Assembly (NCBI GenBank): GCA_041650935.1
Contig: JBAZKH010000003.1
Coordinates: 165,269 to 229,268, forward strand
DNA length: 64,000 bases
Direction of reading: 5' to 3'
Source of the DNA: Candidatus Omnitrophota bacterium
GTDB lineage: Bacteria; Omnitrophota; Gorgyraeia; 2-01-FULL-45-10
Part shown: positions 59,007 to 63,862 of the stretch, piece after piece
How the letters are laid out: each line of letters starts with the position of its first letter
Numbering within the stretch: the stretch's first letter is position 1
Notes under the pieces: model-generated
Databases searched by the model: none
What the model was told of the DNA's origin: nothing
What the model saw: only the letters and a program-made list of their open reading frames with translations
Position numbers and translations under genes: made by a program

Positions 59007-60410
59007 CTATTTGACGGCGTCCTCGATGCCGCCTATCATGTATAATTTCTCTTCCGGCACCGCGTCCAGGGCGCCCGACATTATCTTATCACAACCATCG
59101 ATGGTATCTTCCAGCCTGACGTATGCGCCCTTCCTGCCGGTATAGACTTCCGCGACGAAAAAAGGCTGTGTCAGGAAATTTTCCAGCTTTCGCGCCCTGT
59201 CGTAGACGGTCCGGTCCGCCTTGGAGAGTTCCTCGACGCCCACGACCGGCACTATCTTCTTAAGTTCCTTATATTTGGCCAGCATCTTCAGGACCGATTG
59301 CGTGACCCGGAAATGATCCCTTCCCACAACGGCCGGATCTAGATTCGAGGATGACGATAGCAGCGGGTCTATCGCCGGGTGAAGTTTGAGCTGGCTCCTC
59401 TCGCGCGAAAGGACGATGATGGAGTTAAGGTAGCTGAATATCGTAACTACCGCCGGGTCGGTCAGATCATCCGCCGGGACGTAGACCGTTTCTATAGCGG
59501 TAATCGCACTGCCTTCTTTCGAACGGATACGCTCCTGGAACTCGCTCACTTCGGACCCAAGCGTAGGCTGGTAACCGGTCTCCGACGGCACGCGGCCAAG
59601 GAGGGTCGAGACCTCGCTTCCCGCCTGGACAAAGCGGTAGACGTTATCTATAAAGAAAAGGACGTCCCTGTTTTTACTCTGAAGATATTCGGCGAGCGCT
59701 ACGCCGGTAAAAGCCACTCCGAATTTTGCGCCGGGCGGTTCATTCATCTGCCCGAACGCGAACATGATCTTATCGAGCATATTCTGCTTCTGGAACTCGA
59801 AATATAGTTCGTTGCCTTCCCTTATCCTCTCGCCTGCCCCGGTAAAGACGCACGCGCCCTCATGCTGGGTTATTATATTGTGTATAAGCTCCAGTATCAG
59901 GACCGTCTTACCCAATCCGGCGCCGCCTATCAGGCCCGTCTTGGAGCCCTTCACGACCGGAAAGAGCAGGTCGACGATCTTGATCCCGGTATGGAGTATA
60001 TCTACCTGCCCGGCGGCGAGACGGTCCGGATTTATGTAAAGCCTGGATATATCCTTCATTATAGGCGAGCGCGCCGCCGCCCCTATCGCGCCTTTATTGT
60101 CGATCGCTTCTCCCGATGCGTTTATTATCCGGCCGAAAAGCTCTTCTCCTACGGGGATATTGAGCGGGGACCCGTCCGCGATGACTTCGGTGGACCTGCG
60201 CAGATGAAGCGTAGACGCAAGAGATACACACCGGGCTACATTGGCATCCAGATGCTCGGCCACCTGAAGGACAATGGTCCTGCCGTCGAAAGTCCGTGTT
60301 TTAAGCGCCTCGGCAAGCGCCGGGAGATCCTGTGAGCCGGGAAAGCGCACATCGACAACCGGCCCCTGCGCCGCGATCACATAACCCGTCCTTTTCTTTG
60401 TCTCCGCCAT
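59007..60410 (-). CDS. atpD: F1 ATP synthase beta subunit
   Basis: [19 protein letters not shown]-loop and a DELSEED-region equivalent. 467 aa. Confidence 0.9.
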
Positions 60411-60414
60411 ATAT

Positions 60415-61266
60415 CTATTTTCCGATCAGCATCTGGGCCGAATACAGCTCCCTCGTGCTCTTATCTATCATCTCGTGGTGCGCCTTGAAATATTGCAGTT
60501 TTATCTTTTTAGTCTTCTCCGCAAGCTCCTGGGAACTATTCTCCAGGTGCATGGCCCTCGCCGCAAATTCGGAGAGCTTGCTCTCCTCTAGTATATCGAT
60601 AAGTTTCTGCCGAACCTGTTCGCAGGCAAGGTACTCTATTATGCCGTCCAGCGGCGATTCGATAATAAGCTCCTGGAAACCTTCGGACTTTTCCCGGGAC
60701 GTTTGGCTTATGACCGGGAATGGTATGATCCTGGCCGCTTCAACCCGCTGCAGCACAAATGATATCGGCTTAGGATAGACTATCGATACCCGCCCAAAGC
60801 GCTCTTCCATAACACCGTTTATGATATATTCCGTAAGCGTCGAGGCAAGACTCCTTCTTGCCGCGGCGTCGCCGGCGCTGCCGAACGGCACAAACGGCAT
60901 GCCCATTTCATTAAAATACCGCGCGCCGCGCTCGCCGATCACGATACGCTGCAACTCTCCAAAGCTCCCCCCGAGCCCGGCCGCATTTATGACCTGCAAA
61001 TTGAGGCTGCCCATAAAGCCCTCATCGGAAGTAACCATGATCACGGCCTCTTTCCCGGGCCGGGGCGCCATTAAACGATGGCCGGCGCCGCGCTCGCCGA
61101 TCAGCTCGAAGAAACCATTTATGGCGTTGAAAAATTCTTCATACCGCTCCTTACGCGCCTGCAAGGCGCGGAACTGGAAGACGGCGGAGCTTTTCATCGT
61201 CTCCAGGAGATCTATAAGGTTTGTGTTGAACTCCATATCTTCTTTCAGTTCTTTTATCGTAGCCAT
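60415..61266 (-). CDS. atpG: F1 ATP synthase gamma subunit
   Basis: 283 aa. N- and C-terminal helices in the gamma pattern (MATIKELKE...; ...[11 protein letters not shown]). Confidence 0.8.
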
Positions 61267-61271
61267 TGTTT

Positions 61272-62723: not shown

Positions 62724-62781
62724 TTTCCTCCGGTATCTGTTAAAACATCCGGCAGCACACCTTTTGGAGGTGCGCTGCTAC

Positions 62782-62994
62782 TCACCTGCTGAACAGCTGA
62801 AAGACCACGAGCAGCGAGATAACAGCCACCGCTTCCGCGAATATAAGGGCTATTATCATAGCAAGCAATATCTTCGGCGCCGAAGACGGATTTCTCCCAA
62901 GCGCCCGTATCGAGCCATACGCTATTATCCCTATAACCGTCGATGGCCCCAGGATAGTGGCAAGCATAAGTACGATTATGAGCAGTGTACGCAT
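62782..62994 (-). CDS. atpE: F0 ATP synthase c subunit
   Basis: 70 aa helical hairpin with a polar loop RNPS and a conserved carboxylate in ALIFAEAVAV. Confidence 0.8.
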   Translation of the reverse strand: MRTLLIIVLMLATILGPSTVIGIIAYGSIRALGRNPSSAPKILLAMIIALIFAEAVAVISLLVVFQLFSR

Positions 62995-63148
62995 AGTGAA
63001 GCTCCTCCGCCTTACAGTGGCGGCTTCTCTTCCAGCAGGGTTCCGTTCAAGCGGAGCGGAACCCTGAACCGAAAGCCATTCACCTACACCCTTACAGGCG
63101 TGGCTTTCTGGTTCATGGGTGAGTCAGTTCCTAGTGTTAGGCCACACG
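62995..63148 (-). promoter_or_regulatory. Conserved leader element upstream of atpE (copy B)
   Basis: Shares three colinear blocks with the HD-GYP leader at 9691..9790 (see the finding below). Confidence 0.5.
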
Positions 63149-63862
63149 TCATTTCAGTCTCTCCTGTATCTGTTTCAGCTTATTCTCGAGACTGCCGTCG
63201 ATTATAAGGCTGTCCAATTTTATCACGACACCGGCGACGAGCGCTTTATCCAAGCTCTCGGTTAAAGTAATCGTCCGGCCCACGCGCTCGTTTATAAGAG
63301 CGGCTATCTTTTCTTTATCCTGTTTCTTCACCGCACAGGGCGTAAGAAATTCGGCCCTGGATGACTTCACCTTGAACATCTCCTTCTCCATCTTCTTTAT
63401 CTTATCTATGACGCCTTTTACCAGGTCCTCATGCATCATCTCCCGCGCTTCGGCGGGTAAGGCTTCCTTGAAGATACGCAATGCCGCGGCGGGGATCATA
63501 CCTTTCAACTCGTTATATATCTCTTCCTTTATCTTTTCTTTGGAATTGACCGCGGCCTTTACCATATCCTCGGCCTTATCGCGCGCTTTTTCGACGAGAG
63601 AATCTTTCATCCGCTCGGCCTCTTTTTCTTTGGCGCTCATATAATCCTGGGCCTCTTTTTCGGCCCTGGCCACCTTCTCCTCGGCGTCCCTGACAGCCGC
63701 ATCTATCCTCACCTGCAGCTCTTTCTCTTTCCTGGTAAACTCCTCCCTCAGCTTCGCCAGTCTCGCGGCTTCCTTGGCGGTTTCATTATACAAAAGTTTC
63801 TTCAGCACAAGCACTATCACCAGAAACGTTATTATCTGGATTATGATCAATTGTATAAGCAT
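63149..63862 (-). CDS. atpF: F0 b subunit fused to a delta (OSCP) C-terminal-like domain
   Basis: N-terminal TM plus a long coiled coil (b subunit). C-terminal ...ALVAGVVIKLDSLIIDGSLENKLKQIQERLK matches the delta C-terminal IDGS motif. Confidence 0.6.
   Translation of the reverse strand: MLIQLIIIQIITFLVIVLVLKKLLYNETAKEAARLAKLREEFTRKEKELQVRIDAAVRDAEEKVARAEKEAQDYMSAKEKEAERMKDSLVEKARDKAEDMVKAAVNSKEKIKEEIYNELKGMIPAAALRIFKEALPAEAREMMHEDLVKGVIDKIKKMEKEMFKVKSSRAEFLTPCAVKKQDKEKIAALINERVGRTITLTESLDKALVAGVVIKLDSLIIDGSLENKLKQIQERLK

What the first reader, a model, noticed from the sequence alone, without database searches (positions are those of the whole stretch)
59007..63862. Atypical F-type ATP synthase operon: b fused to a delta C-terminal fragment, order b/delta-c-alpha-gamma-beta, no epsilon
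The gene order departs from the near-universal a-c-b-delta-alpha-gamma-beta-epsilon arrangement. The c subunit is encoded after the b/delta fusion gene, not before it. The b protein carries only the C-terminal IDGS-containing segment of delta. No epsilon gene follows beta, which runs straight into gspE after a 28 nt spacer. The c gene is preceded by the conserved leader described above. This is not the N-ATPase order either. A missing epsilon and a truncated delta would affect regulation and stator attachment if genuine.
Basis: partly seen in the sequence, partly recalled or inferred. Interest (0 to 1): 0.55.

Follow-up and report, generated by a model that had tools for sequence, protein, structure and literature searches.

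The report
Pilus-linked F-type ATPase of Omnitrophota
This is a real but already reported kind of gene cluster: a stripped-down F-type rotary ATPase that uncultured Omnitrophota bacteria always encode next to a pilus machine, and the supposedly missing epsilon gene lies just past the window's end, while no subunit a gene was found anywhere near it.

Summary
The genes are real and at the stated coordinates. On the minus strand they read b/delta (63862-63149), c, alpha, gamma, beta, then a PilB/GspE ATPase after 28 nt.

The 237-aa protein is a full b subunit fused to only the C-terminal domain of delta.

"No epsilon" is wrong. A 76-aa epsilon (beta-sandwich only) ends 20 nt upstream of b/delta. 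Its last 39 codons are window 63883-64000, and NCBI calls it hypothetical.

No subunit a gene was found in the 64-kb window, in the 6.8 kb up to the contig end, or within 10 kb in any related locus.

In the 20 other related loci read (22 records counting this contig's two, mostly labelled Omnitrophota), the ATPase genes always precede PilB and PilC wherever the contig reaches that far. Gene order varies, and the window's b/delta-c order arose from an older c-b/delta order through a c duplication.

Seymour et al. 2023 already described these as "symbiotic" F-type ATPase/type-4a-pilus loci. I found no description there of the subunit anatomy seen here:
- epsilon without its inhibitory helices
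- alpha without its delta-binding N-terminus
- a b-deltaCTD stalk
- an invariant c glutamate
- subunit a never in the cluster

The likely function is an accessory, ATP-driven rotary ATPase working with the pilus system. Whether it moves ions is unresolved.

The parts
63883..64000 (-). 3' end (last 39 codons and stop) of the epsilon gene. The full gene encodes 76 aa, beta-sandwich domain only, and continues beyond the window.
   Evidence: Pfam ATP-synt_DE_N E 8.8e-10; TIGR01216 aligns residues 2-69 to model positions 2-73 of 130. Homologues are 76-103 aa in every locus where epsilon is present.
63149..63862 (-). b/delta fusion, 237 aa: N-terminal membrane helix, long stalk helix (full b), then the delta C-terminal alpha/beta domain only.
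   Evidence: The profile matches whole b chains on residues 5-156 (9itj_U, E 1e-18). It matches delta residues ~98-177 on residues 156-237 (9o19_W). The AlphaFold model has pLDDT 88. Its C-domain superposes on E. coli and P. aeruginosa delta CTD at 1.5 A over 67-68 residues.
62995..63148 (-). 154-nt b/delta-c spacer carrying a genome-specific repeated leader: hairpin GCCGCC-ACTGTAA-GGCGG overlapping the GGAGG ribosome-binding site.
   Evidence: A second copy of the last ~60 nt lies at window ~9690-9750, just before another start codon. Fold energy is -64.7 kcal/mol, z = -3.45. No Rfam match. The spacer is absent in relatives, where it is 2-84 nt long.
62782..62994 (-). Subunit c, 70 aa, F-type hairpin with the ion-binding glutamate (Glu54) and the RNP loop.
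   Evidence: Glu54, Arg34 and Pro36 are invariant in the 11-sequence alignment, with Asn35 at least 90% conserved. The FAE glutamate is kept in all 16 copies. The best solved-structure match is the Chloroflexus F-type c (9itj_H, E 1e-8).
62752..62778 (-). 11-bp GC-rich hairpin followed by a T-run, between c and alpha. It is terminator-like or a possible mRNA-stability or attenuation site.
   Evidence: This is a consensus scan only; function was not tested.
61272..62723 (-). Alpha subunit, 483 aa, lacking the N-terminal delta-binding helix.
   Evidence: It exceeds the NF009884 (560.6 vs 554) and TIGR00962 (529.5 vs 484.45) cutoffs. Residue 4 aligns to residue ~23 of solved alphas. P-loop GDRMTGKT and the arginine finger SVSR are kept.
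60415..61266 (-). Gamma subunit, 283 aa.
   Evidence: Pfam ATP-synt 102.5 bits (cutoff 39.9). TIGR01146 81.3 bits, below its cutoff of 194, so it is divergent.
59007..60410 (-). Beta subunit, 467 aa, with catalytic motifs intact.
   Evidence: TIGR01039 560.8 bits (cutoff 462.85). Read from the translation: [33 protein letters not shown].
57266..58978 (-). PilB/GspE-type pilus ATPase with an N-terminal MshEN (c-di-GMP-binding) domain. It starts 28 nt after beta.
   Evidence: T2SSE E 6.5e-132; MshEN; NF053729 c-di-GMP motif 62.1 bits (cutoff 38).
55982..57244 (-). PilC/GspF platform protein.
50493..55948 (-). Rest of the pilus cluster: Peptidase_MA (55124-55948), GspG-like pilin (54700-55134), two N-methyl minor pilins (54270-54731 and 53540-54289), a GspK-like protein (52554-53543), a PilM-PilN fusion (51040-52566) and PilO (50493-51029).

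Best explanation
The region is one member of a conserved gene module found mostly in Omnitrophota. It encodes an accessory F-type rotary ATPase and sits at the head of a c-di-GMP-controlled type IV pilus / type II secretion-like operon, usually just after a giant surface-protein gene.

Gene order here is epsilon (beta-sandwich only), b-deltaCTD, c, alpha, gamma, beta.

Shown:
- All six subunits are present, conserved and probably functional.
- The catalytic residues of alpha and beta and the c-ring glutamate are intact.
- The stator is simplified to a single b-deltaCTD chain, like AtpF of N-ATPases and, in architecture, subunit E of A/V-ATPases.
- This goes with loss of the alpha N-terminal helix, which normally docks the delta N-domain.
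- Epsilon lacks its C-terminal helices.
- No subunit a gene accompanies the module in any lineage examined.
- The window's b/delta-c order derives from epsilon-c-b/delta through duplication of c and loss of the upstream copy.

Inferred:
- The enzyme runs in the ATP-hydrolysis direction.
- It serves the neighbouring pilus and giant-protein apparatus and is not the cell's main ATP synthase. Published Omnitrophota genomes generally assign that role to a V/A-type enzyme.
- It could energise the membrane locally as a proton pump, if an a subunit is supplied from elsewhere. It could instead act as a mechanical motor without ion translocation, if there is none.
For: Identity and conservation:
- Searches identify the subunits.
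- Searches show the 237-aa fusion conserved down to 23% identity, with all source names pointing to Omnitrophota or unclassified bacteria.

Synteny:
- The 20 related loci outside this contig (22 records counting L001 and L002) hold the ATPase genes, and PilB and PilC follow them wherever the contig reaches that far.
- Gene order varies, which argues for selection on the linkage itself.
- Orders seen: epsilon-c-b/d-alpha-gamma-beta in L012-L016; epsilon-c-b/d-c-alpha in L011; epsilon-b/d-c-alpha in the window clade; alpha-alpha'-epsilon-c-b/d-gamma-beta in L017; alpha-epsilon-c-b/d-gamma-beta in L023.

No subunit a:
- No protein with three or more membrane helices other than PilC occurs within +-10 kb of any locus. 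An E. coli subunit a control was detected.
- No ATP-synt_A domain in the window.

Co-transcription is plausible:
- Intergenic gaps are 4-58 nt apart from the 154-nt spacer.
- No terminator-like site lies between beta and pilB.

Hydrolysis direction:
- Epsilon is 76-103 aa wherever present, without the C-terminal helices.
- No epsilon was detected in L022.

Accessory role:
- PMC10066038 reports 'non-respiratory' F-type ATPase genes next to type-4a pilus clusters in 56/111 Velamenicoccia species. It reports co-location within 10 kb in 57/66 contigs.
- PMC8542988 assigns a V-type ATP synthase to all Ace Lake Omnitrophota.

c-di-GMP link:
- PilB carries MshEN, or PilZ in L023.
- The conserved upstream 462-aa protein is fused to GGDEF in 8 of 85 homologues.
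- Separate GGDEF genes sit upstream of epsilon in L014 and L016.
Against: - The c-ring glutamate is invariant and the b membrane helix keeps canonical b features such as Gln9 and Phe13. Both are most easily explained if a proton-conducting a subunit exists. Absence from the locus is therefore not absence from the genome, which I could not test.
- Helicobacter is a precedent (from my own knowledge) for a lone atpB far from the other atp genes.
- All functional statements rest on synteny and sequence. There are no expression, activity or imaging data.
- I could not show that this particular genome has a V/A-type or a second F-type enzyme.
- The epsilon C-terminal domain is also missing in some ordinary ATP synthases (my knowledge), so its absence is weak evidence for direction.
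Confidence: 0.6

Rival explanations
1. It is the organism's ordinary chemiosmotic F1Fo ATP synthase. Subunit a is encoded elsewhere, and the neighbourhood with pilus genes is only co-regulation or chance.
For: - Alpha and beta pass NCBI's equivalog cutoffs for F0F1 alpha and beta.
- The c subunit keeps the ion-binding Glu and the RNP loop in every homologue.
- The b membrane helix looks canonical.
- Composition matches the rest of the window.
Against: - The linkage to PilB and PilC survives several internal rearrangements and b/delta divergence to 23% identity.
- Subunit a is never in the cluster, although all six other subunits always stay together.
- Published surveys give Omnitrophota a V-type enzyme or a separate 'respiratory' F-type clade.
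- Loss of the delta N-domain, the alpha N-terminus and the epsilon C-domain is unusual for a housekeeping enzyme.
Confidence: 0.15
2. It is a homologue of the Mycoplasma Type 2/Type 3 F1-like ATPases, as suggested by the alpha phylogeny in PMC10066038. On this reading it is a non-chemiosmotic F1-like motor with a foreign membrane sector.
For: -: the authors place the alpha subunit with type-2/3 ATPases.
- Subunit a is absent from all loci.
- The module is associated with a surface or motility apparatus.
Against: - Alpha scores 398 bits against the MMOB1660 model (cutoff 600) and 308 against MSC_0619 alpha (cutoff 520). It scores 560 and 529 against canonical alpha models, above their cutoffs.
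- Beta scores 425 vs 850 and 384 vs 570 against the Mycoplasma models, and 561 vs 463 against canonical atpD.
- The cluster keeps F-type c, b/delta and epsilon.
- In Mycoplasma clusters, three of the seven proteins resemble nothing known, two of them with 3 and 12 membrane helices (PMC3369863 abstract). No c, b or delta counterparts are described. Proteins of that kind are absent here.
Confidence: 0.05
3. It is an N-ATPase, the laterally transferred Na+-pumping F-type variant, or a direct derivative of one.
For: - The best NCBIfam hit of b/delta is the N-ATPase b model TIGR03321, aligned end to end.
- N-ATPases also lack a separate delta and have a long AtpF with a delta-like C-terminus (PMC2881411).
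- The ancestral order epsilon-c-b-alpha-gamma resembles part of atpDCQRBEFAG.
Against: - All N-ATPase models score far below cutoff: 54.7 vs 224.7, 518 vs 750.5, and 502 vs 752.
- There are no AtpQ, AtpR or a genes.
- The c subunit has one Glu, followed by Ala in most members, which is not the Na+ ligand set.
- Beta is last in the order, not first.
Confidence: 0.03
4. It is truly a-less. The c-ring, gamma-epsilon rotor and b/delta stator form an ATP-driven motor, or a gate, that is mechanically coupled to the pilus or giant-protein machinery without transmembrane ion flow.
For: - Subunit a is never linked in the 20 related loci, despite rearrangements that kept the other six genes together.
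- In the one stored KO list that shows the pattern, species 221 of PMC10066038 has F-type alpha and beta but no K02108.
- The stalk has an E-like or FliH-like architecture.
Against: - The invariant c glutamate has no obvious role without an a subunit.
- KO-based absence is unreliable here, because the b, c, gamma and epsilon KOs are also unlisted for that species although the module carries all of them.
- No candidate coupling partner was identified. The conserved 462-aa neighbour looks like a sensor.
Confidence: 0.17

Closest known systems
'Symbiotic' F-type ATPase / type-4a pilus loci of Omnitrophota (Seymour et al. 2023, Nat Microbiol, PMC10066038)
   Same: The phylum matches. An F-type alpha/beta-containing cluster sits directly beside PilB/PilC pilus genes. 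A giant ORF lies nearby. The locus type is reported in every class of the phylum.
   Different: No real difference, so this is a member. In the parts of the paper I searched (ATPase passages of the main text and supplement keyword hits) I found only alpha and beta phylogeny and co-location. I did not find the b-deltaCTD fusion, the truncated epsilon and alpha, the retained c glutamate or the missing a. Its 'type 2/3' label is not supported by the HMM scores here.
N-ATPase (atpDCQRBEFAG; Dibrova, Galperin & Mulkidjanian 2010, PMC2881411)
   Same: There is no separate delta gene. The long AtpF carries a delta-like C-terminus. It is described as always a second ATPase in complete genomes and is thought to hydrolyse rather than make ATP.
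   Different: N-ATPase has subunit a, AtpQ, AtpR, Na+-type c subunits and a fixed gene order starting with beta-epsilon. None of these holds here, and all N-ATPase HMMs score below cutoff.
Mycoplasma Type 2/Type 3 F1-like-X0 ATPases (Beven et al. 2012, PMC3369863)
   Same: It is an extra rotary-ATPase-derived cluster without subunit a, in host-dependent small-genome bacteria, and is proposed to power a surface function.
   Different: In the Mycoplasma clusters, three of the seven proteins resemble nothing known, two of them in the membrane, and no c, b or delta counterparts are described. Here c, b-deltaCTD and epsilon are F-type. Alpha and beta score as canonical and not as the Mycoplasma families.
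Mycobacterial b-delta fusion (e.g. PDB 7jg5 chain d)
   Same: It is a b-like segment fused to delta in one chain. The delta C-domain aligns and superposes at 1.8 A.
   Different: The mycobacterial protein is about 445 aa and keeps the full delta, including the N-terminal domain, alongside a separate b. The protein here is 237 aa with no delta N-domain and no second b gene.
Subunit E of A/V-ATPases and FliH of type III secretion
   Same: The architecture is a long helix ending in a small alpha/beta domain. Full-length Foldseek matches go to yeast V-ATPase E (7tmr_I, 222 columns, TM 0.37-0.40) and FliH (5b0o_F). This b+delta equivalence is an old proposal (Pallen 2006, as cited in PMC2881411).
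   Different: E and FliH have no membrane helix. Sequence similarity is marginal (2dm9, E 1e-5).

Membership tests
Canonical bacterial F1Fo ATP synthase (a, b, c, alpha, beta, gamma, delta, epsilon) | Alpha and beta meet the curated equivalog thresholds. | tested here: met
   alpha scores 560.6 vs 554 (NF009884) and 529.5 vs 484.45 (TIGR00962). Beta scores 560.8 vs 462.85 (TIGR01039).
Canonical bacterial F1Fo ATP synthase (a, b, c, alpha, beta, gamma, delta, epsilon) | Subunit a (ATP-synt_A, with the essential Arg) is encoded with the complex or elsewhere in the genome. | tested here: inconclusive
   Subunit a is absent from the 64-kb window, from the 6.8 kb upstream, and from +-10 kb in the 20 related loci. 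The rest of the genome could not be searched.
Canonical bacterial F1Fo ATP synthase (a, b, c, alpha, beta, gamma, delta, epsilon) | A full-length delta whose N-terminal helical bundle binds the alpha N-termini. | tested here: not met
   Only delta positions 84-172 of 172 are present, fused to b. Alpha lacks about 19-22 N-terminal residues.
Canonical bacterial F1Fo ATP synthase (a, b, c, alpha, beta, gamma, delta, epsilon) | Subunit c has a membrane carboxylate and an R-Q/N-P loop. | tested here: met
   Glu54, Arg34 and Pro36 are invariant and Asn35 is at least 90% conserved.
Canonical bacterial F1Fo ATP synthase (a, b, c, alpha, beta, gamma, delta, epsilon) | Epsilon has both the beta-sandwich and the C-terminal helical hairpin. 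| tested here: not met
   Only the beta-sandwich is present, at 76 aa here and 76-103 aa in relatives.
Omnitrophota pilus-linked ('symbiotic') F-type ATPase loci (PMC10066038) | The host is Omnitrophota. | tested here: met
   the identical proteins are in an NCBI MAG labelled Candidatus Omnitrophota bacterium. Eleven of the 14 species-representative loci carry Omnitrophota or Omnitrophica labels; the other three are binned as Planctomycetia, Planctomycetales or uncultured bacterium.
Omnitrophota pilus-linked ('symbiotic') F-type ATPase loci (PMC10066038) | The F-type ATPase genes lie within 10 kb of a type-4 pilus cluster. | tested here: met
   Beta and pilB are 28 nt apart. PilC, the pilins, PilMN and PilO follow.
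Omnitrophota pilus-linked ('symbiotic') F-type ATPase loci (PMC10066038) | Alpha falls in the paper's 'symbiotic' clade and not in its 'respiratory' clade. | not tested
   No tree was built against the paper's reference set. This is inferred from synteny only.
N-ATPase | The subunits meet the TIGR03321, TIGR03324 and TIGR03305 thresholds. | tested here: not met
   54.7 vs 224.7, 518 vs 750.5, and 502.1 vs 752.
N-ATPase | The atpDCQRBEFAG operon with AtpQ, AtpR and subunit a. | tested here: not met
   No such genes occur in any locus.
N-ATPase | A long AtpF with a delta-like C-terminus and no separate delta. | tested here: met
Mycoplasma Type 2/3 F1-like ATPases | Alpha-like and beta-like subunits meet the NF045863/NF045936 and NF045858/NF045934 thresholds. 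| tested here: not met
   398 vs 600, 308 vs 520, 425 vs 850, and 384 vs 570.
Mycoplasma Type 2/3 F1-like ATPases | A seven-gene cluster that includes unrelated membrane proteins (3 and 12 membrane helices) and has no F-type c, b or delta counterparts. | tested here: not met
   F-type c and b-delta are present. No such membrane proteins occur.

The most novel reading that the evidence does not exclude
The module may be a genuinely a-less F-type machine. On this reading it is a complete rotor (gamma, epsilon, c-ring) and a b-deltaCTD stator, kept for a non-chemiosmotic job. ATP-driven rotation or gating would be coupled to a c-di-GMP-controlled pilus and giant surface protein. This would be a repurposing of F1Fo that retains the Fo c and b subunits. 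It would differ from the Mycoplasma F1-like motors and recall proposed translocase-like ancestors of rotary ATPases.
Probability: 0.2. Interest if true: 0.85.

Novelty: new member of a known kind. Interest (0 to 1): 0.45.

Why it matters
If the module really works without subunit a, it would be a second, independent case of a rotary ATPase turned to a job other than ion-coupled ATP synthesis. The first is the Mycoplasma gliding motor. Unlike that case, the c-ring and membrane-anchored stalk are kept here, which bears on how rotary ATPases and secretion ATPases are related. If an a subunit is supplied from elsewhere, the module is an accessory proton pump dedicated to a pilus system in ultra-small, probably host-dependent bacteria. 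That is still useful for understanding how they attach to or attack hosts.

In practice, automated annotation mislabels this module. NCBI names b/delta 'subunit delta' and leaves epsilon as hypothetical. A preprint on 176 complete genomes scores most of them as lacking a complete F1Fo complex because the gamma KO is rarely detected. Metabolic reconstructions may therefore wrongly score these organisms as having, or as lacking, an F-type ATP synthase.

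Tried and rejected
- Rfam on 56000-64000 at E <= 1 gave only a chance-level RT-3 match inside gamma and nothing for the b/delta-c spacer.
- The spacer as an atp-specific conserved leader is rejected. Relatives have 2-84 nt there. The repeated part recurs in front of an unrelated HAMP/HD-domain gene at about 9.7 kb.
- The 462-aa conserved neighbour as a substitute for subunit a is rejected. It has only a signal or N-terminal helix and one C-terminal membrane helix, and no Pfam or NCBIfam hit. 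Eight of its 85 homologues carry a cytoplasmic GGDEF domain, so it is more likely a periplasmic sensor.
- The two unannotated five-helix proteins in the window (11714-12274 and 37671-38327) show no subunit a motif.
- BLASTP with E. coli subunit a (sequence from memory) against all ORFs of the window and loci found nothing better than E = 1.5.
- The 1-kb gap between epsilon and b/delta in L007 is a transposase-like insertion, not a subunit a gene.
- KO tables in the supplement of PMC10066038 are stored truncated, with only three species visible. They give a lead (species 221 has F-type alpha and beta plus V-type I and K only) but no statistic.
- The V. archaeovorus paper (doi 10.1128/aem.02407-21) is not held.
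- The 22-sequence alignment was too diverse for the locus search, so a 9-sequence subset was used.
- Extending 10 kb beyond the far end of the window found no ATPase genes. One look-up found no record.
- I could not walk the 159-236 kb contig further or search whole genomes.

Full report
**What is in the window.**

On the minus strand, tightly spaced ORFs run from 63862 down to about 50500. All carry the expected Pfam domains above gathering score.
- 63862-63149: a 237-aa protein. Residues 6-133 match ATP-synt_B. Residues 147-236 match only the C-terminal half of OSCP/delta (profile positions 84-172 of 172).
- 62994-62782: a 70-aa subunit c.
- 62723-61272: alpha.
- 61266-60415: gamma.
- 60410-59007: beta.
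- 58978-57266: a PilB/GspE ATPase, starting 28 nt after beta.

Base composition does not differ from the rest of the window.

**Epsilon is present.**

An exact-sequence look-up placed the 237-aa protein on a 158.9-kb metagenomic contig. The same proteins are in an NCBI MAG labelled Candidatus Omnitrophota bacterium.
- On that contig a 76-aa ORF ends 20 nt upstream of b/delta. It matches the epsilon beta-sandwich domain (ATP-synt_DE_N, E 8.8e-10; TIGR01216 positions 2-73 of 130).
- Its last 39 codons and stop are window 63883-64000. The ORF runs off the window edge, so it is not listed there.
- NCBI calls it a hypothetical protein.
- Homologues are 76-103 aa wherever present, so the C-terminal helical hairpin is missing family-wide.

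**The stalk protein.**

A 22-sequence profile of the 237-aa family was searched against solved structures.
- Residues 5-156 match entire b chains (Chloroflexus 9itj_U, E 1e-18).
- Residues 156-237 match only residues ~98-177 of delta (P. aeruginosa 9o19_W, E. coli 5t4o_L, mycobacterial b-delta).

An AlphaFold model (pLDDT 88) shows three parts:
- one helix spanning residues 2-134
- a short helical segment
- a four-strand, two-helix domain

That C-terminal domain superposes on delta C-domains at 1.5-1.8 A over 67-70 residues. The whole chain resembles V-ATPase subunit E and FliH.

No second b gene and no delta N-domain exist in any locus. In parallel, alpha begins about 19-22 residues later than solved alphas. 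It therefore lacks the helix that binds the delta N-domain (established knowledge of E. coli and Bacillus structures), and this holds for all family members. The enzyme appears to have changed both partners of that contact.

**Are the subunits functional?**
- Beta keeps [23 protein letters not shown] and [10 protein letters not shown] (read from the translation).
- Alpha keeps its P-loop and the SVSR arginine finger.
- In subunit c, Glu54, Arg34 and Pro36 are invariant in the 11-sequence alignment, and Asn35 is at least 90% conserved. The FAE glutamate is kept in all 16 copies. The profile is F-type, not V-type.
- Alpha and beta exceed NCBI's equivalog cutoffs for canonical F0F1 subunits.

**Subunit a.**
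- None of the nine polytopic membrane ORFs in the 64-kb window is ATP-synt_A.
- Upstream of epsilon lie a 462-aa protein without known domains and a surface protein of more than 1,665 aa, cut by the contig end.
- In the 20 related loci outside this contig, the only protein with three or more membrane helices within +-10 kb is PilC. A control with E. coli subunit a was detected.
- Whole genomes could not be searched, so absence from the genome is not shown.

**Synteny and the origin of the odd order.**

All the related loci carry the ATPase genes, and MshEN-PilB and PilC follow wherever the contig reaches that far; pilins appear where it extends further. Many are preceded by a giant ORF and the 462-aa protein.

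Gene order inside the ATPase block varies in step with divergence:
- The most distant relatives (b/delta 23-35% identical; L012-L016) have epsilon-c-b/delta-alpha-gamma-beta.
- L011 (38%) has c on both sides of b/delta.
- The window's clade (41-76%) has only the downstream copy.
- Other lineages moved alpha to the front (L017, L023), duplicated alpha (L012, L017), or have no detectable epsilon beside a toxin-antitoxin insertion (L022).

The b/delta-c order is therefore a local rearrangement. The invariants are the six-gene set, the absence of subunit a, and the link to the pilus genes.

**What is already known.**
- Seymour et al. [quoted passage not shown] They report this in 56/111 Velamenicoccia species and in every Omnitrophota class, with 57/66 contigs co-located within 10 kb. 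[quoted passage not shown]
- They group the alpha subunit with Mycoplasma type 2/3 ATPases. The curated HMMs do not support membership. The Mycoplasma models score well below cutoff while canonical models pass. The cluster also keeps F-type c, b/delta and epsilon, whereas three of the seven Mycoplasma cluster proteins resemble nothing known and no c, b or delta counterparts are described.
- The b-plus-delta-C-terminus chain has a precedent in N-ATPase AtpF (PMC2881411). N-ATPase membership fails on HMM scores, gene content, c-subunit chemistry and gene order.
- Published reconstructions give Omnitrophota a V-type ATP synthase (PMC8542988). A survey of 176 complete genomes scores most of them as lacking a complete F1Fo complex, with alpha and beta in 125/176 but gamma in only 30/176 by strict KO. 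That fits divergent module subunits escaping KO models.

**How it most likely works.**

Shown:
- a complete, conserved rotor and catalytic head
- a one-chain stator
- no epsilon C-terminal helices
- no linked subunit a
- operon-like spacing with the pilus genes, and no terminator-like site between beta and pilB
- c-di-GMP parts around it: MshEN or PilZ on PilB, GGDEF fused to or next to the 462-aa neighbour

Inferred:
- It is an accessory enzyme that hydrolyses ATP for the pilus and giant-protein apparatus.
- It either pumps protons, if an a subunit is encoded elsewhere, or acts as a motor without ion flow.
- The invariant c glutamate and the canonical-looking b membrane helix favour the first option. 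The complete lack of linkage across deep divergence favours the second.
- I put the a-less reading at about 0.2 and the ordinary housekeeping synthase at about 0.15.

**Verdict.**

The finding is real and partly misread. It is a member of a published locus type, so its novelty is limited. The subunit-level anatomy and the open question about subunit a give it moderate interest.

Noticed in passing
window 62995-63148 (-) and window ~9690-9775 (-): A repeated leader-like element. The last ~60 nt before the c start codon (TTGAACGGAACC...GAAGCCGCCACTGTAAGGCGGAGGAGCTT) recur almost identically just before the GTG start of a HAMP/HD-domain gene (8206-9690). A hairpin overlaps the ribosome-binding site. 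It is not in Rfam and is absent from relatives' atp clusters.
   Followed up: partly
window 62752-62778 (-): An 11-bp GC-rich hairpin with a T-run lies between c and alpha. It could raise the dosage of the upstream genes (epsilon, b/delta, c) relative to alpha, gamma and beta.
   Followed up: no
L001 5128-6516 (upstream of the window); homologues P0051-P0135: The conserved 462-aa neighbour belongs to a family whose named members are all Omnitrophota and which has no Pfam domain. It has a duplicated periplasmic domain and one C-terminal membrane helix. Eight of its 85 homologues carry a C-terminal GGDEF domain, and L014 and L016 have separate GGDEF genes upstream of epsilon. Together with MshEN or PilZ on PilB, this suggests c-di-GMP control of the whole cluster.
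   Followed up: partly
L011 9657-11001; L012 3801-6739; L017 6487-9397: L011 carries two c genes flanking b/delta, which looks like a rearrangement intermediate. L012 and L017 carry two alpha paralogues in tandem. One L012 copy has lost the arginine finger (SVSIIG).
   Followed up: partly
L007 5720-6637; L022 9309-9945; L019 3410-4811: Insertions and damage inside the module in other species. L007 has a transposase-like gene between epsilon and b/delta. L022 has a nucleotidyltransferase/HepT toxin-antitoxin pair where epsilon would be, with no epsilon detected. L019 has beta split into two ORFs.
   Followed up: partly
window 63149-63862 and 63883-64000: The public annotation is misleading. NCBI names the b-delta fusion 'F0F1 ATP synthase subunit delta' and leaves epsilon as hypothetical protein WC522_05715. 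JGI names for homologues range from 'subunit b' to 'vacuolar-type H+-ATPase subunit H'.
   Followed up: yes
window 44045-50496 (-): Directly downstream of PilO lies a TolC-like outer-membrane factor, a HlyD-type adaptor, two ABC ATPases and two ABC-2 permeases. No secretin gene was seen in the pilus cluster.
   Followed up: no
window 21035-23622 (-): A LuxC (acyl-CoA reductase) and LuxE (acyl-protein synthetase) gene pair, which is unexpected in an Omnitrophota genome.
   Followed up: no
Supplement of PMC10066038, file 6 (species 58, 221, 231): In the visible part of the KO table, species 221 has F-type alpha and beta plus V-type subunits I and K, but no V-type A, C, D, E or F. This may be a lead to a V-type I-like stator partner, or it may reflect an incomplete genome.
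   Followed up: no
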